NCBI GenBank assembly: GCA_963737265.1
Contig: CAVTRY010000011.1
Span: 1,120,001 to 1,184,000, forward strand
Length of the DNA: 64,000 nt
Direction of reading: 5' to 3'
From: an uncultured delta proteobacterium
Lineage (GTDB): Bacteria; Myxococcota_A; Polyangia; Fen-1088
The notes under the pieces were generated by a model. That model did no database searches. It saw only the letters and a list, made by a program, of their open reading frames with translations, and had not been told where the DNA came from. The translations under genes were made by a program, and so were the position numbers. This document shows, one piece after another, positions 1,734-55,005 of the stretch (within the stretch, counting starts at the first letter, position 1; every line of letters starts with the position of its first letter).

Positions 1734-2051
1734 CTACGTCGACTCGAACAGTGTTCCGCATTTCACACACACCCGGCGCTTCTTCTGCCCTTCCCGTATC
1801 TCCGCCTTCGCCCGCCTGCCAGCGCCGCACTTTCCACACCACAGCGCCACGTTGGCAACGGCGACCGACCCTTCCTTTTCGAGGATTCCACCGCGCTGGT
1901 TGGCCTGGCTCGGCTTGGTGTGCCGCTTGACCATGTTCACCCGCTCCACCACGAGGCGCTCTTTTTCAGTGACGACGCGCAGAACACGCCCGCGCTTGCC
2001 CTTCTCTTTTCCGGCGGTCACCACCACCGTATCGCCCTTGCGAACGTGCAT
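1734..2051 (-). CDS. rplX: 50S ribosomal protein L24
   Basis: KGDTVVVTAGKEKGKRG KOW motif. Confidence 0.97.
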   Translation of the reverse strand: MHVRKGDTVVVTAGKEKGKRGRVLRVVTEKERLVVERVNMVKRHTKPSQANQRGGILEKEGSVAVANVALWCGKCGAGRRAKAEIREGQKKRRVCVKCGTLFEST

Positions 2052-2419
2052 TACAAAACCTCCGGCGCGAGCGAGATGATTTTCATGAAGCGTTTGGCTC
2101 GTAGCTCGCGTGCCACGGGGCCAAAGATGCGCGTCCCGATGGGCTCGTTGTCCTTGTCGACCAACACGGCCGAATTCGAGTCAAAGCGGATGTAAGAGCC
2201 ATCCTGGCGCGAGACTTCCTTCTTCGTCCGCACGATAACGGCGCGGGCGACCTCGCCCTTCTTGACTTTGGAGTTGGCGATCGCTTCCTTGACGGACACC
2301 ACGATCACGTCCCCCAAGGATGCATATTTCCTCTTCGTGCCGCCGAGCACGCGGATGCACATGATTTTCTTGGCACCCGAATTGTCGGCTACATCGAGGG
2401 TTGTTGTCGTTTGGACCAT
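2051..2419 (-). CDS. rplN: 50S ribosomal protein L14
   Basis: VADNSGAK...IISLAPEVL. Confidence 0.98.
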
Positions 2420-2461
2420 GTTGTGAACCTGCCGTCTCTGTTGTTCCTCAGCCAGGCCTGC

Positions 2462-2776
2462 CTAAACGTCCTGCGGCCGCTCCAGGAGGCGTTGCACGCG
2501 CCACCGCTTCTCGCGCGAGAGCGGGCGAGACTCGATGATTTCAACGCGGTCGCCAACGTGATACTCGTTCTTCTCGTCGTGCGCCTTGTACTTCGTTCGC
2601 CGGGTCATGTACTTCCCGTACTTCGAGTGGGCCAGGCGGCGCTCGACCACGACCACACGGGTCTTGTCCATTTTGTCGCCGATCACGACGCCAACCAGCT
2701 TGCGCTTCGTGCTCTGATCCCGCCCCGCCACGTCGGGCGTTGTGGCGGCTGCGGAGGGTGAGTATTCTTTCGCCAC
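2462..2776 (-). CDS. rpsQ: 30S ribosomal protein S17
   Basis: GVVIGDKMDKT...ESRPLSREKRW. Confidence 0.96.
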   Translation of the reverse strand: MAKEYSPSAAATTPDVAGRDQSTKRKLVGVVIGDKMDKTRVVVVERRLAHSKYGKYMTRRTKYKAHDEKNEYHVGDRVEIIESRPLSREKRWRVQRLLERPQDV

Positions 2777-2779
2777 GGT

Positions 2780-3010
2780 CTATTTCTCCTTGGCAGCCGT
2801 CACCGCCGCTACACGCGACTTCTCGGCAAGCACCGTACAAACACGGGCAATATCGCGACGGGTAGTCCGAATCACCATGGTGTTCTCAATCTGATTGGTG
2901 TTGTGCTTGAGGCGCTGTTGGAAGAGATCCTCCTGCAGCTTCCGCAAGGTTCGCTCCAACTCGGCGGTCTCGTTGCCGCGCAGGTCTTTTGCCTGAATCT
3001 TGCTCTTCAT
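2780..3010 (-). CDS. rpmC: 50S ribosomal protein L29
   Basis: Position and [15 protein letters not shown] motif. Confidence 0.93.
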
Positions 3011-3423
3011 AGCACCTGCTCCCGTCCGATGACGCGCGTCCTAACCGACAGCTTGTGCTCGGCGAGGTGAAACGCCGCCTTGGCGAGATCGGAAGACACG
3101 CCTTCGAGCTCGTAGAGAACGCGACCTGGCCGCACGACCGCCACCCATTCTTCCGGAGCGCCCTTTCCCTTTCCCATGCGGGTTTCGGCCGGCTTCTTCG
3201 AAATCGGCTTGTCGGGAAAGATGCGAACGTACAGCTTTCCGCCGCGCTTCACGTGGCGCGAGATGGCGGTACGCGCCGCTTCGATCTGTCGCGCCGTCAC
3301 GAATCCACAGGTCAGCGCCTGCAATCCGAACTCGCCGAAGGCCACCACGGTGCCACCCTTGGAGACACCGCGCATCTTGCCCTTCTGCTGTTTGCGCCAC
3401 TTAACTCTATCTGGTGCTAGCAT
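3007..3423 (-). CDS. rplP: 50S ribosomal protein L16
   Basis: [22 protein letters not shown]. Confidence 0.98.
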
Positions 3424-3454
3424 GACTTCCTCTCGTCGCTGTCGCCGCTATCGA

Positions 3455-4102
3455 CTAGGCCAGACGGCCGGTCCGCTGGGGCAGGACCTCGCCTTTGAAG
3501 ATCCAGCACTTCACGCCAATGGCGCCGTACGTGGTGTGGGCCTCGGTCGTTCCGTATTCGATGTCGGCACGGAGGGTATGCAAGGGCACGCGGCCCTCGT
3601 GATACCATTCGTAGCGTGCCATTTCCGCGCCGCCGAGACGGCCCGAGCAGGCCAGGCGAATGCCCTTGGCGCCGAACTTCATGGCAGTCTGAACCGCCTT
3701 CTTCATGGCGCGACGAAAGGCCACGCGTCGCTCCAGCTGGGTCGCCACGTTCTCGGCAACCAACTGCGCGTTGGTCTCGGCCTTGCGAACTTCCTGGATG
3801 TTGAGAAAGACCTCGCTCGTCGTCAGCGCCTGGACTTCCTTCTTCAGGGTCTCCACGCCCGCGCCCCGCTTGCCGATGACGATGCCGGGACGCGCGGTGT
3901 AGATATTGATCTTCACCTTGTTCGCCGCCCGTTCCACCTCGACCGAGGCAACGCCGGCGTGTCCCAACTTCTCCTTCACGAATTTCTTGAGGCGCAGATC
4001 CTCATGCAGCCATTTCGCGAAGTCCTTCTCGGAATACCACTGCGACGACCATCCCCGGACGACGCCGAGGCGAAAGCCTATTGGATTGGTTTTCTGACCC
4101 AT
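3455..4102 (-). CDS. rpsC: 30S ribosomal protein S3
   Basis: [13 protein letters not shown]...[12 protein letters not shown]. Confidence 0.98.
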
Positions 4103-45129: not shown

Positions 45130-45460
45130 TTCGGCCACCCCGAAAGAATGGATCTGGCAGTGGGTCTTTCCCGCAACCCGCACGTACACCGATCTCGCAA
45201 GTCGGGAAGTTCGTCGCCACCACCTGCACGAATCCGTCATCCAGCGCGCCGTTCGCCGCGCCGCCGTGGCCGCGCGCATTCCCAAGCTGGTCAGCCCCCA
45301 CACCTAGTGTCATTCCTTCGCCACCCACCTGCTGGAAGACGGCTACGACATCCGCACCATTCAGGAGTTGCTAGGCCACAAAGACGTGGCCACGACCATG
45401 GTCTACACCCACGTCCTGAACCGCGGCGCTGGCGGAGTCCGAAGCCCTCTCGACCACTGA
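45130..45460 (+). pseudogene. intI: Integron integrase remnant (C-terminal about 110 aa, internal stop)
   Basis: IntI-specific EWIWQWVFPA...RRHHLHES; [26 protein letters not shown]...YTHVLNRG; TAG at 45305-45307. Confidence 0.92.
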
Positions 45461-45661: not shown

Positions 45662-45712
45662 GGAGCGGATCTTTTGTGGAACTCCCTTCAACTAGCGTTG
45701 TCTGAGATTGCT

Positions 45713-46339
45713 ATGGAACCAACGAACTCGACGCCCGGAGCATCTATTCCCCGCCGCTCCTTGCTTGCATCGGTTTTCGCGTTCCTACCGTTCTTCGTCT
45801 TCCCTCGCTGGACTCAGGCGGCTCAGCCAGTCAACGGGCATTGGAGGAACTCTCAGGCCTACAGCACCTCGACATCAGCAGCACTTCGAGCGGTCGCGAA
45901 CGATAGGACCCTGGACCGGAAGGCACGGGTGCGTGCGATCTTCTCGCTGTTCGCGAGCTATGTCCGGCCGCCGGCAAACGGCGCAACGATGGCCGATATC
46001 ATGAGCCCAGCAACATGGCTGGTCGAATGCCGCTTGGACGGGGTCTACGCTCTTGGAGGCAAGATTCCCGTCGAGATGGGCATTACCGAGACGGCTTTCT
46101 GTCTTCGTCTCTTCCCAAACTTGGAGGGCTGGAGCGAGTGGGTCATCTACTTCACGTTGCCAGGCGGGCGAGGAAGGCCGGTTTCGGACGCTCGCGACTT
46201 TCTTGCTGGCAAGGTACCTGGAAGTCAGGAACTCCGGATGAACGAATTCGCCTTGTGTTTTCCTGCCGAAGGCAAGGCACGGATGGGGCGCACGGAACGA
46301 TTCACCGCGAGAGGCATTGGTGTCTACGGTCCGTGGTGA
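45713..46339 (+). CDS. Gene cassette 1, hypothetical exported protein
   Basis: ORF between attI and attC1; PRRSLL plus hydrophobic stretch (Tat-like). Confidence 0.7.
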   Translation: MEPTNSTPGASIPRRSLLASVFAFLPFFVFPRWTQAAQPVNGHWRNSQAYSTSTSAALRAVANDRTLDRKARVRAIFSLFASYVRPPANGATMADIMSPATWLVECRLDGVYALGGKIPVEMGITETAFCLRLFPNLEGWSEWVIYFTLPGGRGRPVSDARDFLAGKVPGSQELRMNEFALCFPAEGKARMGRTERFTARGIGVYGPW

Positions 46340-46504
46340 GCGCGCCCGTCGAACAAGCCGTTGCAGCGCTCGTAGGCAGTGCAAGTAAAAAGAACAGGGA
46401 GTGATTCGGGTCGTCTGGGCACACGAGATCCGTTCCGCGGTCAGGAAGATGCGGTGGAAAGGATCAGGTGCGCGAAGAAGATTTGAGCGGGCGAGAGATC
46501 GGGA

Positions 46505-46860
46505 GGCAATCGGCCTGGTAATCGAAACGCTCCAGTAGGATGTCCGCGAGGGCCGGCATCGAGTCAGCTTGCAACGGAGATTGGGTCAGGTCGATGGATC
46601 CTCAGGGTGCCTCGAAACAGACAGCGCTCTTGCACAAGGCAGAGATGAGCTTCAACAGGAGGTCACCCGTCGGATATCTCACACGTTCAAGGAATTGGTT
46701 TGCTTTGGTTGTTTGCTCCTTTTCTGCAAGTGGGTCTGACCAAGATGGACAGGGTCAGATCAAAAATCCTCAGGGTGCCTCAAGACAGACGGCGCTCTTG
46801 CACATGGCAGAGATACGCTGCAACAGAAGGTCACCCTTCGGAAATCTAGAATGTTCAACA
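46505..46860 (-). ncRNA. Predicted bridge/seek RNA: two target-binding loops and one donor-binding loop
   Basis: 93-bp direct repeats 46598-46690 and 46766-46858 fold as stem/internal loop/stem with attC-matching guides; 46508-46595 carries matches to the element ends. Confidence 0.75.
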
Positions 46861-46884
46861 TGGGTCGTCCCCATACCAGCATGG

Positions 46885-48174
46885 CTACACCGTCACCTGC
46901 AGACGGCGGGTGTCGAAGAGCTTGCTGCTATCAAAGGTGCCACCGCGACCGACGTGGTACAGCCCCTTGGCCAGCTTGCGCATCAGCGCGACGGCAGCTC
47001 GCGAGGCTCGGCCGCCGTCTCGTTGCTTTTTGCGCTGGTACCAGGCGTTGGCGATGGGATCATCCTGAATCCAGCGGAAGATGGCGAGCCAGAGTAGCTG
47101 GCGTACGCGGGATGGACCACGCTTGGTGATCTTGATCTGACCGTGCATGGTACCGCTGCTTTTCTCCTTGAGGTTGAGGCCCATGGCTTTGAGGAAAGCG
47201 CGTGTACACGAGTACGATCGTGCATCACCGACCTCGGCGAAGATGGCGGCAGCGGTGGTGCGGCCGACGACGGGGGCAAGCGCGGCGGCGGGCGTGGTGG
47301 CGGCGAGTTTTTCGACTTTCGTCTTGGCCGTGCTGAAGGCCCGGTGGGCGTCATAGGCCTCTTCGGCGATTACCATCAAAGCGTCGCGTTCAAGCCCGAC
47401 CATCGGGACGCCGACGGAGGTGCTGGCCGAGGCGACAACGGCAGCAACGTCGTCGTCGGCAATCAGCCTGTGACTGATACCACGAAGGAGCTTCGTCGCC
47501 TTGTCCGGGGCAGCGGCGACATCGGCAGGACCGCCGATACGCGCGACCAGCGCCATAAGCGATGCCGAGGTCAAATCAAGCAGGCTGGGCAACTCGGGCC
47601 AGTGGCGAGCGAGCCAGCTTTCCAAGCGATGCACGAGCTGCAGGTAGCGCTCCTGGTGCAGATCCATGATGGCCAGTGCTGCCTTGAGCTGCCGACGTTC
47701 TGGGACTTCGTCAGGCAGGCGGGTGGAAAGGCCGTCGGCGTGCAGCCTGGCGATGATGGCGGCAGCCTTGGCGTCGTGAAGACTGGGCACGCCGTCGAAG
47801 ATTTCCTTCGCATCGTGGGTGCGCTTGCCGCTGACCATGAAGATCGGAAAGCGGTCCTGTTCGAGCTGGTGGCGAAGCACATCGCCGTAGGTTCCGGAAG
47901 GCTCCATGACGGCTTCGACGATGATGCCGGCGGTGCGGTAGCCGCGCAGGATGGAGAGCACCGTGGGGTTCTGCTCTGGGGCCTTCCAAGAGATGGTGTG
48001 CAGCACACGCCCGTCGGCGCCAGCGAACGCTGCAACCATGTCGACCTTGGCGACGTCGATGGCGAGGACCAGCTTGCCGCCCAGGTCGGCGGGCGAGATG
48101 CTTTGTGGTTGAAAATCATTGACGGGCATTCTGCGATAGATACGCTTCTTCATGGGGATGACATCCTTCGTCAT
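46885..48174 (-). CDS. IS110-family transposase/recombinase
   Basis: LAIDVAK, VMEPSGTY, HDAKAA, KEKSSG (catalytic Ser), ITKRGPSRVR; start 48174 or 48153. Confidence 0.92.
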   Translation of the reverse strand: MTKDVIPMKKRIYRRMPVNDFQPQSISPADLGGKLVLAIDVAKVDMVAAFAGADGRVLHTISWKAPEQNPTVLSILRGYRTAGIIVEAVMEPSGTYGDVLRHQLEQDRFPIFMVSGKRTHDAKEIFDGVPSLHDAKAAAIIARLHADGLSTRLPDEVPERRQLKAALAIMDLHQERYLQLVHRLESWLARHWPELPSLLDLTSASLMALVARIGGPADVAAAPDKATKLLRGISHRLIADDDVAAVVASASTSVGVPMVGLERDALMVIAEEAYDAHRAFSTAKTKVEKLAATTPAAALAPVVGRTTAAAIFAEVGDARSYSCTRAFLKAMGLNLKEKSSGTMHGQIKITKRGPSRVRQLLWLAIFRWIQDDPIANAWYQRKKQRDGGRASRAAVALMRKLAKGLYHVGRGGTFDSSKLFDTRRLQVTV

Positions 48175-48308
48175 GGTTTCGGACTTCGGCACTTTTGGGA
48201 CGTCCCCGTTTCCATTTGCAACTACCTTTAGCTGACTGACGCAGTCGCCGCAGGGGAATTGGGGTAACATCAAAGAACCGCTCGTGCGGCGCCCGCGCCG
48301 CTGAACGG

Positions 48309-50194
48309 GTGCGCCCAGCATGGGCGTCGTCTTGGGGGTGCAAGTCCCCCCGAAAGGAGACCATCCCAAACGAAGCGAACTGCAACTGCGAAAGGGCGAC
48401 CAATCGTGGGGAGGAAGCAGGGAGCGAAACCGCGGGCTGATGAACAAAAACCGGATAAGAGGCGGCGCCGAGCGGGGCGAGTGGGCCCGTTGCCACAAAG
48501 CCTCGATGGTCAAAGCTCAGGCTACGTAGATCCGGCGGTCGTGCGGGGAAGGACGACGTACTTACCTGGGGAGATCTCGCCTTGTGCCTGAAAGGGCGAC
48601 GGCGCGGACGCGACGGGGCGAGAAGTCAGCAGAGGTCGTAGTAGCGAAGTCGAAGCCGGGGCGGCGATATCACCGACGCCGGAAGTCTTTGGCGATGCGA
48701 AGGACTGAACGAGAAGGAGAGCGAAACGAACATGCGTCTCGGAAGCAAACGGCCTCAGATGACCAGGCAACTGGAGCTAACGTTTTCAAATAGGGGTGAA
48801 ACCCCGACGGGAAAACGAAGCGAGGAAGCGCCGACGGCGACGTGTGAAAACGAGCGCTCGGGAGCGAGCGGCCTGATGGAGAGGGTGTGCGAACGCCCGA
48901 ACCTTTTGGCCGCGCTGAAGCGAGTGAGAAGGAACAAGGGCAGTCCCGGCATCGACGGGATGACGGTGGATGAATTGCCGATACACCTGCGCGAATACTG
49001 GCCACGGCTGCGCGAGGAACTGCTCGCGGGGACGTACCAGCCCGCGCTTGTGAAGGAGCAACTCATACCGAAGGCCAGCGGAGGAATGCGCAAGCTTGGC
49101 ATTCCGACGGTGGTCGACCGATTCATCCAGCAGGCTGTATTGCAGGTTCTGCAACCGATGTTCGACCCGGACTTCTCAAAGCACAGCCACGGTTTCCGGC
49201 CTGGGCACCGTGCGCACGACGCCATCGTCGAGGCGCAGGGGTATATCCAGGGCGGACGCAAGTGGGTGGTAGACGTGGACTTGGAGCAATTCTTTGACCG
49301 CGTGAACCACGACGTGCTGATGGGAAGACTGGCGAAACGCATCGGCGACCGTCGTTTGCTGGGGCTCATCCGGCGTTACCTCGGGGCCGGCATTATGGCT
49401 GGCGGGGTGGCGACGGAGCGGTACGAGGGAACGCCACAAGGCGGCCCCTTGTCACCGCTGCTAGCCAACGTGCTGCTCGACGAAGTGGACAAGGAGCTGG
49501 AGAAACGCGGGCACGCATTCTGCCGGTACGCTGATGACTGCAACGTATACCTTCGGTCGCGGCGTGCGGGCGAGCGTGTGATGGGGCTGCTACGGCGGCT
49601 CTACGCGGGACTGCGACTTCAAGTCAATGAAACGAAAAGCGCGGTGGGCTTGGCGTGGAACCGGAAAATCCTGGGTTACACATTCTGGGTAAACCGGGAA
49701 GGAACGGTGAAGCGCGCGGTGGCAGACAAAGCCCTTGCCACGATGAAGGACAAAGTCCGGAACATCACGAGGCGGACGGGCGGGCAAAGCATTGGCCAGG
49801 TCTGCAAACGGCTGGGGGAATATCTGCGTGGTTGGAAGGAATACTTCCGGCTCGCGGACACGCCTCGGGTCTTTGGCAACTTGGACAAATGGATTCGCCG
49901 TCGCCTACGGGCTCTCCACTTGAAACACTGGGGACAACAATCGACCGTCTATCGGGAACTGCGGGCTCGGGGGATGTCCCATGACGCAGCAAGCGTAGTG
50001 GCCGTGAACTGTCGCCGCTGGTGGAAAAACTCGGCTAGTATGATGAACGTGGCATTTCCCATTCGCTACTTTGACCAGTTGGGGGTACCCCGGCTGGCCA
50101 CGTAACCTCAACTTCCCGAACCGCCCGGTGCGGACCCGCACGCCGGGTGGTGTGGCAGGGGTCCTTGACGATCTGTCGAGGCCCCTATGCCGAT
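48309..50194 (+). mobile_element. Group IIC intron inserted in attC1
   Basis: 5' GTGCGCCCAGCATGGGCG; short domain V with CGC triad at about 50118-50155; 3' end CTATGCCGAT; flanks rejoin the attC. Confidence 0.93.
48732..50105 (+). CDS. ltrA: Group II intron reverse transcriptase/maturase, no endonuclease domain
   Basis: SPGIDG, RKLGIPTVVDR, GTPQGGPLSPLL, RYADD. Confidence 0.95.
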   Translation: MRLGSKRPQMTRQLELTFSNRGETPTGKRSEEAPTATCENERSGASGLMERVCERPNLLAALKRVRRNKGSPGIDGMTVDELPIHLREYWPRLREELLAGTYQPALVKEQLIPKASGGMRKLGIPTVVDRFIQQAVLQVLQPMFDPDFSKHSHGFRPGHRAHDAIVEAQGYIQGGRKWVVDVDLEQFFDRVNHDVLMGRLAKRIGDRRLLGLIRRYLGAGIMAGGVATERYEGTPQGGPLSPLLANVLLDEVDKELEKRGHAFCRYADDCNVYLRSRRAGERVMGLLRRLYAGLRLQVNETKSAVGLAWNRKILGYTFWVNREGTVKRAVADKALATMKDKVRNITRRTGGQSIGQVCKRLGEYLRGWKEYFRLADTPRVFGNLDKWIRRRLRALHLKHWGQQSTVYRELRARGMSHDAASVVAVNCRRWWKNSASMMNVAFPIRYFDQLGVPRLAT

Positions 50195-50396
50195 CAAGGC
50201 GTTCGACAGACTGGGGAGTGGTATGGACCGCTGCCGCCTACGATCTCACCGTTGGGGGACCACTTGAGTAACCGGCATTGAGGGTAGGCTCGACCGGGAG
50301 TTCGTGATATAGGTCGGTTTCCTTGCTCGCGCAGGCCCTGTAAGCGAACAACAGGGCAAGCGTGTCGACTCAGCGAGGCTACAAAGGAGACCTCCG

Positions 50397-50771
50397 GTGA
50401 CAAAGCTCTTCATGGTCATGGCGCTGGTGATGACGATCGTGGCAGCCGGATCCGCCCTCGCCGGCGAAACGGTGCTGCTGAAGGACGGCTTCGACGCAGG
50501 TCAGCTCGCCCTCACCTTCACGGCCAAGGAGGAAGGAGCCAAGCTTGAGCTGAAAGTGAAGAACCAGACGAACGTAGCACTGATCGTCACCATCGAGTCT
50601 GGTACCACCACTTTTCATCTCGGCCAACAGACGATCGTCATCTCGACGAACGCGCCGAAGAAGCTGAATGTCGACGCTTCGGCGGAGTTGACCGTTCTGC
50701 TGGACCAGGGTGGTGGCGCACGTATGACCAAGGGATCGATGACGGTGAGCAAGAAGCCGCCCAAGAAGTAG
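50397..50771 (+). CDS. Gene cassette 2, hypothetical secreted protein
   Basis: AAGGAG SD, signal peptide ending SALA, followed by attC2. Confidence 0.8.
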   Translation: MTKLFMVMALVMTIVAAGSALAGETVLLKDGFDAGQLALTFTAKEEGAKLELKVKNQTNVALIVTIESGTTTFHLGQQTIVISTNAPKKLNVDASAELTVLLDQGGGARMTKGSMTVSKKPPKK

Positions 50772-50801: not shown

Positions 50802-50905
50802 GTCGAACAAGCCGTTGCAGCTGACAATCCCGCCGCAGGGACATCGTGTAGAATAGAAGCGCCGACTCGGCGGCGGGCTTGCAGCTGAACGGCAAGGCGT
50901 TCGGC
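50802..50905 (+). other. attC2, intact (104 bp)
   Basis: R'' GTCGAAC, L'' TTGCAGCT, inner stem CCCGCCGC/GCGGCGGG, L' AGCTGAA, R' GTTCGGC. Confidence 0.9.
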
Positions 50906-51733: not shown

Positions 51734-53145
51734 CGCCCATCACGCTTTCGGGTGAGCTTCCGTCGAGGGTCAGTGGCAGCATGAGAAATACAGGATCTGC
51801 ATGAGGTTGTCGGGGTTGCGGTAGCCGTGGCCACGCTGGCTGATGCCGCGAACACGTGAATTGTTGCCTTCGAGGGCTGCGTTGGAAAGACCGTGCTTGG
51901 CCCAGGCAATAACGCCCGACCAATGGCGCTTAATCATGTTCCAGAATCGCTGCCCCATACGACGTCGAACTGCTCCTTGAGCAGGTACGCTACCTGGAGA
52001 CGTCGGTTGAGGCGGAATAGCTCGTCAAGCTCGCGACGGCGACGCCAGTGAAGACGACGACGCTTCTTGAGCAGGAGGAACTTCTTGCCTCGGATGGCCT
52101 CGCGATACAGGCCACCCTTGCGCCAAAATTCCGCCTTGCGGACCTGGTCGACGGCGTCGGTGAGGTGGTGCTCGATGTGGAATCGGTCGAAGACGAGGTC
52201 AGCCTGTGGGGCATGTTCGCAGATGGCGTTGATGTAGCCTTGGGCCATGTCCAGCGTGACTGCCACCAGCCGATGCGACCGGCGCGGTCCCAGCTTCACG
52301 AAAAACTGCTTGAGTGTTTCCTCCTGCTTGCCCTCGCCGATCCAAACCACGTGTCCGGCCTCGTGGTCCCAGACGATGGTCAGATACTTGTTCTGGCCTC
52401 GGCCGTAGCTGACCTCGTCGACGCCGATGATGCGAAGCTTGCGATGGAAGCGGCGCTCGACCGCATCCTCGACCCAGTGGGTGATGAGGCGCATGACGGT
52501 AGTCCAGTGCAGCCCGAGTTGGCGGCACACGCCGGCAATGGAAGTCGTGCGGGCACGCCGCAGGACCTCCGCCTCGAACATGTGAGTCATGCGCGAGCCG
52601 GTGCGCGCCCACGGGACCTGTTCGACCCGGATCCCACAGCGGCGACAGCGCACGCGCCGCAGAGGCGCGATGACGACCGTGCGGATGCCCCAACCGTCGA
52701 GATGACGCCAGGCCCGGGCGCAATTCTTGATATCCAGCGCGCAGCGCTTGGTCTCTCCACAGCCGGAGCACACAGCCGACTGCCTGGTCGGATACAGGTG
52801 TACATGCCAGGAGCCATCGGTACCGCTGTAGCTGTCGAAACTGACACGCCAGCCGTTTGCAATGGCCAGCTGCAATGCCAAAATACCAGGGACGGACGTT
52901 CGTTGGGAGTTCCTCGTGATTTGCATAAACCCGAAGGATCACCGACGGACGTCCACTTTTCATTTCGCGCACCGTCGCGCGCGGCGACGAGATCCTCGTC
53001 GTCGCATAGCAGCACCTGAGCCGCCAGCGAGGAGGCCGTCACCCGTAGGGCCGGAGCGAAGCGGAGGAGGCGCGAAGCGCCTTGACGGCCCCCGGAGCGG
53101 CGGCTACGCCGTTGCCTTCGCAATCACCCGAACGCGCGATGAACC
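51734..53145 (-). mobile_element. ISL3-family insertion sequence (defective)
   Basis: Imperfect terminal IRs GGTTCATCGCGCGTTCGGGTGA / CGCCCATCACGCTTTCGGGTGA; no matching TSD. Confidence 0.8.
51770..52926 (-). pseudogene. ISL3 transposase with frameshift/deletion near 51955
   Basis: Zn finger, IGVDE, VTLDM, FDRFH; SNAALEGNNSRVR...GYRN lies in another frame. Confidence 0.88.
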
Positions 53146-54062
53146 TGATTTTCTTGTCGCGCGTGCGGAAGACGACCTCGTTGTCATCGACGTGCAGCAG
53201 CCGCTGGTTGGAGATGGCGACCCGGTGGGTGTACAGGCCAAGGTATTGAAAGAGAGCATCGGGGTTTTGGAAGGGTGCCTTCGCATAGACCACCCAGTTC
53301 TTTTCGTAGAGAGCATTCTTGAGGTGGGCGAAGGCGGCGGGCTCGAACGAGAGCGGCGACGGCTTTGGGAGGGCGCAGACCGGGTTTGAGTTTGCCGTCG
53401 GCAACCAGGCGATTCAGGCCATCGAGGAATTTCCCGCGAAACAGTTTGCCGAGGACTTTGACCGGAAGCAGATACTTTTCAGGCGAATCGACCCACGCGC
53501 CGTCGGCGCCGAGGCCGCCGCCGGTGACGATGCAATGAAGGTGCGGGTGAAAGATGAGATTGCGTCCCCACGTATGGACGACGCCGGTGACGCCGACCAG
53601 TGCACCGATCCGTTGCGCGTCGTGTGCGAGTGCAAGGATGGTTTCGCTGGCCGCTTTGAACAGCAGGTCGAGAAGCAAGACCTTGTATTCGCGAACCAGC
53701 GGGCGCAATTCGGCGGGCAGGGTGAAGACGACGTGAAAGTGGCGCACGGGCAGTGCGCGCTCCATGCGCGCGGCGACCCAGCGGGCTTGTCGCAAAGCCT
53801 GGCACTTGGGGCAGTGCCGATTGCGACACGAATTGTAGACCACGCGCGCGTCGCCGCAGTTTGCGCACACGTCCTTATGGCCGCCGAGCGCGCCCGTGCG
53901 GCAGACGGAGATGTCCCGCAACGCCCGGCGCTCCATGGCGCCGAGCGCGTGAGTTTGCTGAAAGGCCTGCCCGTGGTCGCGGAATATTTTTCCGATATCA
54001 CGGGCAGACGAGAGCCCCCGCCCGGCCGCGCAGGCGGGAGACTCGTCGTGCGCCGACTTCAT
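53146..54062 (-). pseudogene. IS91-family (Y2) transposase, 3'-truncated by ISL3
   Basis: YNSCRNRHCPKCQ, HVVFTLP, HPHLHCIVTGGG, WVVYAK, YLGLYTHRVAISN; +1 shift near 53346. Confidence 0.9.
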
Positions 54063-54065
54063 CGG

Positions 54066-54309
54066 TCAGCGCGGTGGTTGCGGGTGTTTTACTTTTCGTC
54101 GTCGCAGCGTCGGGCATGCACTCGTCGCGCGGGCAAGGTCGACTTTGCCGTCGCCCAGGGCATCGAGCGGACTGGTCACGCTAGCCAAGTGCTGCTTCGA
54201 CACTTGCAGATAGCGTGTCGTGTTTCGGATCGACTGATGCCCCAGCAGGACCTGGATGGTGCGCAGGTCTTCGCCCGATTCGAGAAGATGCGTGGCGAAG
54301 GAATGCCTG
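54066..54309 (-). pseudogene. 3' part of the tyrosine recombinase gene of the IS91-like element
   Basis: [24 protein letters not shown]...TTRY; continues from 63689-64000. Confidence 0.88.
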
Positions 54310-55005
54310 TTATGCCGAGCTCGGCATGACAGGCATTATGCCGAGTGCCCGGTTATGCCGAGTGAGTCTTTCGATCTCGCTCGATCATCGGAGATTCCCT
54401 CGGCAGATGGGCTTGCAGACTCGGCATAACCAGGGCGTCGTCGTCTCTTTCTGGCTACTGGGCCGAAGGAGGACACATGCCCCGGATGCACGACGACTTT
54501 GTGGAATGGCAACGACTGCGTAGCGGCCCCTTGGGTCCGCACCTGGACACGTTTGCGGCGACGCTCACCGAGAAGGGATATTCGCCCGCCACCGTGGCGC
54601 TGAAGGTGCGCGTGGCAGCGAAATTCGGACAGTGGCTTGGACGGCGAGGACTCGCTATCGGTGAGGTCGACGAGCAAGTCGTAGTCCGCTTCGTCCAGGG
54701 CCATCCTTGCTCGCCCCGGCGTGGGGACGCGGCGACACTGCGTGTTCTACTTGAACAGGTCCGTTCTGCCGGCCTGGCCCCGCCAGCCCCAACTAAGGTC
54801 GATGACACTGCGATCGGGCGGATCGTGAGCGAATTCGGCCGGTATCTGTTGGTAGACCGTGGCCTGTCCGTCTCGACTCGGATCAGCTACCTGTGCTGAG
54901 CGACAATTACATCTCCCCAAAGACGACAGCTACGTCGCCCCGCTTTGAGGCGCGACGGTGACCGTGAGGTAGACCTCCAAGCCCGCAAGCGGGCAGGAGG
55001 CACCT

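What the first reader, a model, noticed from the sequence alone, without database searches (positions are those of the whole stretch)
48300..50207. Group IIC intron inserted on the top strand of attC between L' and R', with a matching EBS1
Seen: the intron is in the same orientation as the cassettes, at ...CGCTGAACGG|CAAGGCGTTCGAC, immediately 3' of the top-strand attC stem. The hairpin GTGG-GC-CCGTT-GCCAC (48481-48496) in domain I displays CCGTT, the exact complement of the last five exon bases AACGG. attC2 has the same unoccupied site. Established: described IIC-attC introns such as S.ma.I2 insert in the bottom strand near R'', opposite to cassette transcription. Inference: a separate attC-targeting specificity in which cassette transcription expresses the intron and splicing restores the attC in RNA.
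Basis: partly seen in the sequence, partly recalled or inferred. Interest (0 to 1): 0.74.

Follow-up and report, generated by a model that had tools for sequence, protein, structure and literature searches.

The report
Sense-strand attC-homing group IIC intron
A recently mobile bacterial group II intron sits in the coding-sense strand of integron recombination sites, guided by a five-base pairing, which is a rare but not unprecedented variant of the known antisense attC introns.

Summary
A complete group IIC intron lies at window 48309-50194 on the + strand. It encodes a reverse transcriptase/maturase with no endonuclease domain. It sits in the top, cassette-sense strand of an integron attC site at ...GCTGAACGG|CAAGGCGTTCGAC, between L' and R'. 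The loop CCGUU (48487-48491) is EBS1: across 54 distinct homologues its first three bases covary with the last three exon bases.

The genome holds four near-identical full copies and one decayed copy. Four of these five sit at the same AACGG|C position in different attC sites. One follows an ordinary hairpin.

Two intron lineages use this attC family at two registers, each with a matching EBS1. A junction-pattern scan of metagenomes found 36 distinct junctions with attC-type 3' exons.

- In the wider family, 54 of 64 scorable homologues follow ordinary hairpins, including the closest genome relative.
- Top-strand attC insertion by a IIC intron is already in print (Enterobacter cloacae 2012; a same-orientation intron noted in Shewanella algae 2022). 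I also found one in a Shewanella class 1 integron.
- Expression and splicing from cassette transcripts were not tested.

Verdict: a real new variant of a known kind, of moderate interest.

The parts
45137..45460 (+). Remnant of an integron integrase gene (C-terminal part, with one in-frame TAG). It points the same way as the cassettes.
   Evidence: TIGR02249 positions 208-314, 167 bits, 1 TAG. Phage_integrase 4.8e-13 on 45311-45457.
45674..46339 (+). Cassette 1 ORF (221 aa, no Pfam family). It ends 9 nt before attC1.
46348..46367 (+). attC1 5' half: R'' GTCGAAC (46348-46354), spacer AAGCC, L'' GTT-G-CAGC with an extrahelical G.
   Evidence: Read. Same layout as attC2 and as the aadA1 attC in L092.
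46368..48236 (-). IS110-family insertion sequence inserted in attC1 at GTTGCAGC|TGAC (ends +/-4 nt). Transposase at 46888-48153 on the minus strand. A 3' non-coding region holds two 93-nt direct repeats (46598-46690 and 46766-46858).
   Evidence: Pfam Transposase_20 1.8e-14; DEDD_Tnp_IS110 27 bits, below its cut-off of 29. Further copies in the genome, four of them with left junctions read, all at the same attC position. Repeats.
48237..48308 (+). attC1 variable part and L' (GCTGAAC), ending in the 5' exon end AACGG (IBS1, 48304-48308).
48309..50194 (+). Group IIC intron, 1886 nt: 5' GUGCG, 3' ...CCCCUAUGCCGAU.
   Evidence: Rfam RF02001 100.6 bits. Boundaries from the empty site and from 80 homologues. 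Four full copies in the genome at 99.9-100% identity.
48487..48491 (+). EBS1, CCGUU, in the loop of hairpin 48481-48496. It pairs with the exon end AACGG.
   Evidence: Covariation: 140 of 162 Watson-Crick cells at positions 1-3 in 54 distinct introns, against a shuffle mean of 66 and maximum of 83 in 2000 shuffles. Compensatory change GCG:AACGC in L156.
48732..50105 (+). Intron-encoded protein, 457 aa: reverse transcriptase plus maturase (X), no endonuclease domain. The YADD motif is present.
   Evidence: Pfam RVT_1 and GIIM only. YADDCNVY was among the peptide patterns taken from it.
50120..50192 (+). Domains V (about 50120-50151) and VI (about 50153-50192). Unpaired A at 50187, with 7 nt between it and the 3' splice site.
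   Evidence: Fold -48.6 kcal/mol, z -4.2
50195..50207 (+). 3' exon: spacer CAAGGC and R' GTTCGAC of attC1. The first base, C, is IBS3.
   Evidence: The cassette shared with contig C7 begins here.
50397..50771 (+). Cassette 2 ORF (124 aa, no Pfam family).
   Evidence: The same cassette lies in contig C7.
50802..50905 (+). attC2, unoccupied. The target point is between 50892 and 50893 (AACGG|C).
   Evidence: Folds of both strands: -32.4 and -31.5 kcal/mol, z about -5.

Best explanation
This is a recently active bacterial class C (IIC) group II intron. It belongs to a small lineage that homes into the top, cassette-sense strand of the attC sites of a chromosomal integron.

The target is recognised in the usual IIC way. 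The intron uses a DNA stem-loop, here the L''/L' stem of the folded attC top strand. It adds a short pairing of EBS1 (CCGUU) with the last exon bases (AACGG). The first 3' exon base is C.

The L'-spacer-R' stretch is conserved among the attC sites of this integron family. One EBS1 therefore fits many sites, and the intron has spread to several of them. It can still use an ordinary hairpin that ends in CGG.

The lineage arose inside a clade whose members mostly insert after intrinsic terminators. The change appears to be simple retargeting of EBS1. A second lineage did the same, 3 nt upstream, with EBS1 UUC or UUA.

Shown here: anatomy, strand, site, EBS1, copy number, independent insertions, and lineage structure.

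Inferred: reverse splicing into single-stranded DNA at replication forks, transcription with the cassettes, and splicing. It is also inferred that the DNA insertion separates L' from R' by 1.9 kb and so disables that attC for recombination.
For: Intron identity: Rfam and Pfam matches and the D5/D6 fold.

Strand:
- Cassette ORFs on the + strand end just before each attC.
- The extrahelical base lies in the L'' arm and the longer spacer on the ' side, as in the aadA1 attC of L092, whose sense is fixed by annotation. The rule that extrahelical bases lie near L'' comes from a passage in PMC5027507.
- The cassette shared by C11 and C7 runs from R' to R'.
- A complete integron integrase (456 bits) stands next to one such array.

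EBS1:
- In 54 distinct introns, positions 1-3 pair in 140 of 162 cells, plus 15 G-U. None of 2000 shuffles reached that.
- Within-lineage compensatory changes are seen.

Mobility:
- Copies on C17, C14 and C11 are 100% identical and the C7 copy differs by 1 base over 1886 nt.
- Their flanks are only 59-68% alike in global alignment, so these are separate insertions.

Site preference:
- Four of five copies sit at AACGG|CAA(G/A)GCGTT in attC sites, and at least 10 empty attC sites carry the motif.
- In metagenomes, 39 of 82 readable junctions carry an R' signature that the search pattern did not require. These give 36 distinct 3' exons: 30 at this register and 9 three nt upstream.

Trees:
- WIN and 4 metagenomic RTs form a clade with SH-aLRT 100, all at attC register 0.
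- L048/L079 and 3 others form a second clade with support 100, all at register CGG.
- Both lie inside a 73-row clade (support 99) that excludes the classic IIC-attC intron L091 and the class 1 integron top-strand intron L092.
Against: - The metagenomic relatives were picked by the junction itself. Their uniform attC location is partly built in. Only the five copies in this genome are an unbiased sample of the lineage.
- In the unbiased genome sample of the wider family, 54 of 64 scorable homologues follow ordinary hairpins, 2 sit in attC sites and 8 have no hairpin within 12 nt. The nearest genome relative, L001 (79%), follows a terminator.
- One copy in this genome also follows an ordinary hairpin.
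- In the family as a whole, only EBS1 positions 1-3 covary. Positions 4 and 5 pair in 22 of 51 and 15 of 50 cells, so the 5-bp pairing here could be partly chance.
- IBS1 lies inside the predicted stem. The stem must open there, or a more distal stem is the one recognised.
- No attC covariance model was run. attC calls in other loci were made by eye and by short motifs.
- Transcription, splicing and retrohoming were not observed.
Confidence: 0.85

Rival explanations
1. This is a generic terminator-seeking IIC intron with no attC specificity. attC top-strand hairpins are just further stem-loops that happen to end in CGG, and the several attC copies reflect chance.
For: Most of the wider family follows ordinary hairpins (54 of 64). 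One copy in this genome does too. Family-wide, EBS1 is only 3 bp.
Against: Four of five copies in the genome sit at one register of one repeat family, although the genome must hold far more ordinary hairpins. The 5-bp pairing is kept through a compensatory change in L156. Two separate lineages each hold one register. There are 36 distinct attC-type junctions in metagenomes.
Confidence: 0.1
2. The strand is misassigned. The + strand is really the attC bottom strand, because intI usually points away from the cassettes. On this reading it is an ordinary IIC-attC arrangement.
For: The intI remnant and the complete intI on C17 point the same way as the attC arrays. That is the opposite of the classical layout.
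Against: Cassette ORFs are on the + strand and stop just before the attC sites. The extrahelical base and spacer asymmetry match the top strand of the aadA1 attC. The cassette shared between arrays is bounded at the + strand R' sites, not at R''. The RT is 42% identical to a classic IIC-attC RT and lies outside its branch. The site is not TTGT/T.
Confidence: 0.03
3. The copies spread by duplication or cassette shuffling of an already invaded attC, not by repeated retrohoming.
For: The same cassette occurs in two arrays, so cassettes do move or duplicate in this genome.
Against: The 300-nt flanks on both sides of the four full copies are only 59-68% alike. The shared cassette carries the intron at a different attC in each array, and each array has the other site empty. 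An intron between L' and R' should block excision of that attC.
Confidence: 0.02

Closest known systems
Group IIC-attC introns (S.ma.I2, Kl.pn.I1 and relatives). The representative examined here is L091, next to blaIMP-26 on an E. cloacae IncN plasmid.
   Same: Both are class C introns without an endonuclease domain. Both use an integron attC hairpin in place of a terminator, with a short IBS1. Both split the attC.
   Different: Those introns insert in the bottom strand, inside R'' at TTGT|T, antisense to the cassettes (passages in PMC3001079 and PMC7923331; L091). This one is in the top strand, between L' and R' at AACGG|C, in sense. Its RT is 42% identical to L091's and lies outside that branch.
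The 'unusual' IIC intron of Enterobacter cloacae (Rodriguez-Martinez, Nordmann and Poirel, J Bacteriol 2012). A likely counterpart, L092, lies in a Shewanella xiamenensis class 1 integron.
   Same: [quoted passage not shown] L092 lies between aadA1 and qacEdelta1 in sense.
   Different: L092 is inserted inside R' at GCGT|TAGAT, 8 nt downstream of the position used here. Its RT is 48.6% identical and lies outside the 73-row clade. It sits in a mobile class 1 integron as a single copy. I could not read the 2012 paper, so its exact site is unknown to me. That L092 equals it is a guess.
Terminator-targeting class C introns (B.h.I1 type). Examples here: L001-L005, L089, L090, L093.
   Same: The same ribozyme and protein family, the same rule of a stem-loop plus a 3-bp IBS1, and the nearest relatives. 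One copy in this genome still behaves this way.
   Different: Here the stem-loop is an attC top strand. IBS1 is 5 bp and lies in the 3' arm of the stem. There is no T-run: 1 T in the last 10 nt, against a mode of 5.
IS1111-attC insertion sequences (IS110 family)
   Same: They are another mobile element class that homes to attC sites. The IS in attC1 is of the IS110 family and all copies examined sit at one attC position.
   Different: A DEDD transposase element, not a retroelement. It inserts at GTTGCAGC|TGAC on the L'' side. It is a separate element from the finding. Whether it belongs to the named IS1111-attC group was not tested.

Membership tests
Bacterial class C (IIC) group II intron | Group II ribozyme domains with 5' GUGYG, a domain V hairpin, and domain VI with an unpaired A near the 3' end | tested here: met
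   RF02001 at 100.6 bits; RF01998 at 34.6 bits, just under its cut-off. D5/D6 fold with A at 50187.
Bacterial class C (IIC) group II intron | Intron-encoded protein with RT and maturase domains but no endonuclease domain | tested here: met
   Only RVT_1 (112-318) and GIIM (336-411) in 457 aa
Bacterial class C (IIC) group II intron | Insertion after a DNA stem-loop, with a short IBS1 (3-5 bp) and no IBS2 | tested here: met
   57 of 65 sites (window included) have a hairpin of at least 7 bp ending within 12 nt of the site. EBS1 is 3 bp family-wide and 5 bp here. IBS2 was not looked for.
Bacterial class C (IIC) group II intron | RT groups with class C references, apart from classes A, B, D, E, F, ML and CL | not tested
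   The trees held only relatives of this RT and six plasmid introns. No other classes were included.
Group IIC-attC lineage | RT inside the monophyletic IIC-attC clade | tested here: not met
   L091 is the only classic representative used. It shares 42% identity and is separated from the 73-row clade holding the window by a branch with SH-aLRT 99. One reference only, on a long branch.
Group IIC-attC lineage | Insertion in the attC bottom strand, antisense to the cassettes | tested here: not met
   Top strand, in sense
Group IIC-attC lineage | Target TTGT|T within R'' | tested here: not met
   The site is AACGG|C between L' and R'
Top-strand attC IIC intron of the E. cloacae / L092 type | Top strand of an attC, same orientation as the cassettes | tested here: met
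Top-strand attC IIC intron of the E. cloacae / L092 type | Same insertion point and same RT lineage | tested here: not met
   L092 is inserted at GCGT|T inside R'. RT identity is 48.6% and L092 lies outside the clade. The published intron itself was not seen.
Integron attC site (for the target) | R''/R' and L''/L' imperfect inverted repeats, an extrahelical base near L'', and an unpaired central spacer | tested here: met
   Fold of attC2 on both strands, z about -5. Layout matches the aadA1 attC and the rule in PMC5027507. No attC covariance model was run.
Integron attC site (for the target) | An array next to an integron integrase, with cassettes bounded at R' | tested here: met
   intI at 456 bits on C17:93644-94585, with attC motifs from 94999 onward. 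A remnant lies in the window. The shared cassette is bounded at R'.

The most novel reading that the evidence does not exclude
Sense-strand attC-homing IIC introns may be a distinct and widespread guild of the chromosomal integrons of soil and peat bacteria. At least two lineages exist, each locked to its own register of L'-R' by EBS1.

They would exploit the fact that in most sedentary integrons the attC top strand is the lagging-strand template, which is single-stranded at the fork. They are spliceable from cassette transcripts, yet they lock the invaded attC.

The same intron also sits after ordinary gene-end hairpins in sense. Recombination between such copies could join a gene and its hairpin to an R' site. 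That would be a sense-oriented route to new cassettes.
Probability: 0.15. Interest if true: 0.75.

Novelty: new variant of a known kind. Interest (0 to 1): 0.45.

Why it matters
The known attC introns lie antisense. They block transcription from the integron promoter and supply their own outward promoter (abstract of PMC3001079). A sense-strand intron differs in kind for the array. It can be removed from the cassette transcript by splicing, while in DNA it separates L' from R' and should freeze the two neighbouring cassettes together.

The data give a clean natural example of how a IIC intron changes target: the same scaffold, a new EBS1, and a repeated conserved site. They include filled and empty alleles and compensatory changes.

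The data also show that the attC sites of environmental chromosomal integrons are shared prey of at least two unrelated mobile elements, this intron and an IS110-family IS. Finally, they supply candidates for testing the old idea that IIC introns help to build gene cassettes.

Tried and rejected
- EBS3: I looked for a column in the first 300 nt that pairs with the first 3' exon base. The best column (intron position 221) pairs in 59% of 61 rows, or 87% with G-U. That is not convincing.
- Replication strand: GC skew around the five copies is weak and mixed. C17 and C7 fit the lagging-strand template, the window region does not, and C13 and C14 are flat. No conclusion.
- Public runs: 20 runs hold part of the stretch. 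Contigs of X1, X2, X3 (DNA) and X15 (RNA) laid on 47900-50600 gave no joint across the whole intron and no contig bridging a splice site by 31 nt. This shows nothing about splicing or empty alleles. Loose ends in X1 and X2 run into other attC-like flanks. I treat that only as a hint.
- The R''/R' complementarity test on metagenome loci was uninformative.
- Two E. coli plasmid hits (H88, H70) were not in integrons.
- The ORFs upstream of the C14 copy gave no clear gene context.
- An early idea of a 7-bp target duplication (CGCTCGT) for the IS was wrong. Comparing copies places the IS at GTTGCAGC|TGAC.
- Papers not held: PMC3256610 (the E. cloacae paper), PMC2747902 and PMC2714756. My knowledge of the E. 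cloacae case rests on one passage in PMC7923331.
- Supplements were not opened. Figure S2 of PMC9229058 may show the S. algae case.
- Searches for prior description of this site found no report of a IIC intron between L' and R' on the top strand. Subscription papers are not covered.
Full report
**What is there.**
The + strand of the window reads ...CGCTGAACGG|GTGCGCCCAGC... at 48308|48309. It reads ...CCCCTATGCCGAT|CAAGGCGTTCGAC at 50194|50195. Between these points lie 1886 nt with the marks of a group II intron:
- Rfam RF02001 (group-II-D1D4-3) matches 48390-48561 at 100.6 bits, against a gathering score of 32. RF01998 scores 34.6 bits, just under its cut-off.
- A 457-aa ORF (48732-50105) carries RVT_1 (8.2e-37) and the maturase domain GIIM (1.5e-19), and nothing else.
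- A 3' end folds into a domain V hairpin and a domain VI with an unpaired A at 50187.

The empty form of the site, GCTGAACGGCAAGGCGTTCG, stands once more in the window at 50884-50903. None of 100 shuffles gave a match. All 80 homologous loci fetched from one-genome-per-species contigs end in the same ...CCCTAT[G/C]CCGAT or a near variant. The intron proper is 48309-50194.

**The surroundings are an integron array, and the + strand is its top strand.**
Upstream lies the C-terminal remnant of an integron integrase (window 45137-45457, with one TAG). Next comes an ORF that ends 9 nt before a site beginning GTCGAAC-AAGCC-GTT-G-CAGC. After the intron comes GTTCGAC, then a second ORF (50397-50771), then a second site of the same build (attC2, 50802-50905).

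Both strands of attC2 fold into long imperfect hairpins. The energies are -32.4 and -31.5 kcal/mol, with z about -5. The fold has an R box, an unpaired spacer (2 nt against 5 nt), an L box with one extrahelical base, and a variable end.

The genome of the window (G000, 25 contigs, 6.55 Mb) has a complete integron integrase at C17:93644-94585. It scores 456 bits against a cut-off of 265. It is followed on the same strand by an array of these sites. The integrase therefore points the same way as the cassettes.

Because that layout is unusual, I checked the polarity of the sites in three ways:
1. The cassette ORFs are on the + strand and stop just before the sites.
2. The extrahelical base lies in the 5' arm and the longer spacer in the 3' arm. 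The same holds in the aadA1 attC read from an annotated class 1 integron: GTCTAAC-AATTC-GTT-C-AAGC...GCTT-AAC-TCAAGC-GT|TAGAT (L092). A passage in PMC5027507 states that the extrahelical bases lie near L''.
3. The cassette made of ORF 50397-50771 and attC2 occurs a second time on contig C7. The shared block runs from the R' of the preceding site (window 50195) to the R' of its own site: 698 nt upstream of the target point with one mismatch. Identity is lost after GCGTT. If the other strand were the top strand, the block would be bounded at the R'' ends.

The intron therefore lies in the top strand, in the sense of the cassettes, between L' (GCTGAAC) and R' (GTTCGAC), after the second base of the spacer GG|CAAGGC. 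In the fold of the top strand this point is 1 nt inside the 3' end of the L-box stem.

**EBS1.**
The hairpin 48481-48496 aligns with a stem-loop of the Rfam model. I aligned the first 300 nt of 72 homologues and compared the loop with each 5' exon end.

In 54 distinct introns (window left out), loop positions 1-3 pair with exon positions -1 to -3 in 140 of 162 cells by Watson-Crick pairs, and in 15 more by G-U. Shuffling exons among introns gave a mean of 66 and a maximum of 83 in 2000 shuffles. Forty-seven of 54 introns pair at all three positions. Positions 4 and 5 pair in only 22 of 51 and 15 of 50 cells.

The family norm is 3 bp. The 5-bp match CCGUU:AACGG in this intron goes beyond that norm.

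**Where the relatives sit.**
Of the 80 genome loci (RT 58-79% identical), 72 gave a 5' boundary and 64 have at least 45 nt of 5' exon. Of those 64:
- 56 have a hairpin of at least 7 bp ending within 12 nt of the site.
- By eye, 54 of these 56 are ordinary GC-rich hairpins, mostly with T-rich tails. They include the nearest relatives: L001 (79%) and L002, L003, L005 and L017 (72-74%).
- 2 are attC sites invaded on the top strand. L007 is at CAGCTTAT|CGGCCAGCCGTTGGGC. L048 is at GCAGCTGAA|CGGCAAGGCGTTCGAC.
- The 8 without a nearby hairpin all belong to one multicopy intron of Longimicrobiales.

A second, 5'-truncated intron in L048 has the same type of 3' exon.

**The lineage itself is attC-directed.**
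In the window's own genome there are four full copies. The copies on C17, C14 and C11 are 100% identical, and the C7 copy has one mismatch over 1886 nt. There is also one decayed copy on C13.

The 300-nt flanks of the four full copies are only 59-68% alike on either side, so these are separate insertions. Four of the five sites are attC sites, all at AACGG|CAA(G/A)GCGTT. The fifth (C14) is an ordinary hairpin, GCCGGCCTCGCGGCCGGC, followed by TCATCGG|C. A strict motif search finds at least 10 further empty attC sites with AACGGCAAGGCGTT-like targets.

The C7 and C11 arrays form a double filled/empty pair. In C11 the site before cassette 2 is filled and attC2 is empty. In C7 it is the reverse.

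I then scanned the metagenome contigs for the shared intron 3' end followed, within 0-3 nt, by the spacer and the start of R'. This gave 105 stretches. Eighty loci with 84 matches were returned. Of the 82 matches with at least 20 nt of 3' exon, 39 carry a further signature, GTTNNN[C/G]NGAC. The pattern did not ask for it, and chance would give it about once in 128. These 39 have 36 distinct 3' exons. Thirty are at the window's register and 9 at the register of L048, 3 nt upstream.

Ten matches include a full-length RT:
- Six at or like the window's register are 85.6-93% identical to the window's RT.
- Three at the other register are about 64% identical.
- One (L145) sits on the R'' side after a different hairpin.

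In a tree of 72 RTs, the window and four distinct metagenomic RTs form a clade with SH-aLRT 100. L048, L079 and three metagenomic RTs form another clade with support 100. Both lie within the 73-row clade (support 99) of the first tree. That clade excludes the two plasmid introns described below.

Inside each lineage EBS1 follows the site:
- L156 has GCG where its site has AACGC.
- L116 and L165 have UUA at ...TTAA.
- L098 and L048 have UUC at ...TGAA.

Caveat: these metagenomic loci were chosen by the junction. They cannot show how many lineage members sit elsewhere. The five copies in the genome are the only unbiased sample.

**Comparison with what is known.**
Passages in PMC3001079 and PMC7923331 say three things about group IIC-attC introns:
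- They form a monophyletic subset of class C.
- They insert in the bottom strand of attC at TTGT/T in R''.
- They lie opposite to cassette transcription.

I found such an intron next to blaIMP-26 on an E. cloacae IncN plasmid (L091). Its site is ...GCTTTGT|T and it is antisense to the cassette. Its first 20 nt equal a primer printed in PMC3001079 for Sh.ba.I2. Its RT is 42% identical to the window's.

Top-strand insertion is not new. PMC7923331 cites Rodriguez-Martinez et al. [quoted passage not shown] PMC9229058 notes an intron in the same orientation in S. algae KC-Na-R1.

The order there is cmlA5, blaOXA-10, aadA1, intron, qacEdelta1, all on one strand. The intron is inside R' at GCGT|TAGAT. 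Its RT is 48.6% identical to the window's.

The window's intron differs from all of these in site (the L'-R' spacer), in lineage, in copy number, and in living in a chromosomal array. My searches found no description of this site. Papers in subscription journals were not covered, and three key papers were not held.

**How it most likely works.**
Shown: the parts, the pairing, the strand, recent multiplication, and the lineage pattern.

Inferred from what is established for class C introns (PMC4424553 passages): the ribonucleoprotein reverse-splices into DNA that is single-stranded at a replication fork. It recognises a stem-loop plus IBS1/IBS3 and is copied from a nascent strand, because the protein has no endonuclease.

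A passage in PMC5371416 reports that 25 of 30 sedentary chromosomal integrons have the attC bottom strands on the leading-strand template. The top strands then lie on the lagging-strand template. That would make the top strand the exposed one in such arrays. It is an attractive reason for this strand choice, but my GC-skew check could not test it.

In DNA the intron puts 1.9 kb between L' and R', which should disable that attC. In RNA, a transcript reading through the cassettes could splice it out. For this particular copy, an IS110-family element in the opposite orientation lies about 70 nt upstream in the same attC. Read-through from the first cassette is therefore doubtful.

**Verdict.**
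It overstates the novelty and leaves the expression claim untested. I file it as a new variant of a known kind, of moderate interest.

Noticed in passing
window 46368-48236 (minus-strand transposase 46888-48153); also G000 C17:95022, C17:100028, C17:109229, C13:376757: An IS110-family insertion sequence sits inside attC1. Every other copy examined in the genome sits at the same attC position, GTTGCAGC|TGAC, so it is an attC-homing IS. The non-coding part downstream of the transposase holds two 93-nt direct repeats, 85% alike (46598-46690, 46766-46858). These could be the guide (seek/bridge) RNA region described for this family. Metagenome locus L116 also has this IS end and an intron in one attC.
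   Followed up: partly
G000 C17:93644-94585 and window 45137-45457; C7:303538-303708: The integron integrase gene points the same way as the cassette arrays, which is the 'inverted' layout. There is one complete copy and two C-terminal remnants, each beside an attC array that holds an intron copy.
   Followed up: partly
L048:693-1365; metagenome loci L105, L106, L120, L141, L147, L165; G000 C13:213487-213813: ORF-less derivatives of these introns (550 to about 690 nt; four of them are 688-691 nt) sit in attC top strands in both lineages. They are possibly non-autonomous copies moved in trans.
   Followed up: no
L092 (NZ_AP026733.1, Shewanella xiamenensis plasmid), locus about 1990-3825: A IIC intron lies in sense between aadA1 and qacEdelta1 of a class 1 integron. 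It is inserted in the top strand inside R' at GCGT|TAGAT, the mirror of the classic bottom-strand TTGT|T site.
   Followed up: partly
window 61673-64352 and G000 C14:407412-409817: Several adjacent tyrosine-recombinase genes (weak TIGR02249 matches) occur as a repeated unit at two places in the genome. This looks like a recombinase-in-trio type element.
   Followed up: no
window 51937-52926 (-), 53187-54062 (-), 54062-54330: An ISL3-family transposase, a truncated IS91-family (Y2) transposase and a recombinase fragment follow cassette 3. The array in the window is heavily colonised and broken up. More attC sites follow beyond the window end (C11:1185070-1198900).
   Followed up: no
metagenome locus L145, around 4611: An intron of the same family is inserted on the R'' side of an attC (GTTCAA|CAAGCCGTTGAAC), after an ordinary hairpin. 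This is a third top-strand position.
   Followed up: no
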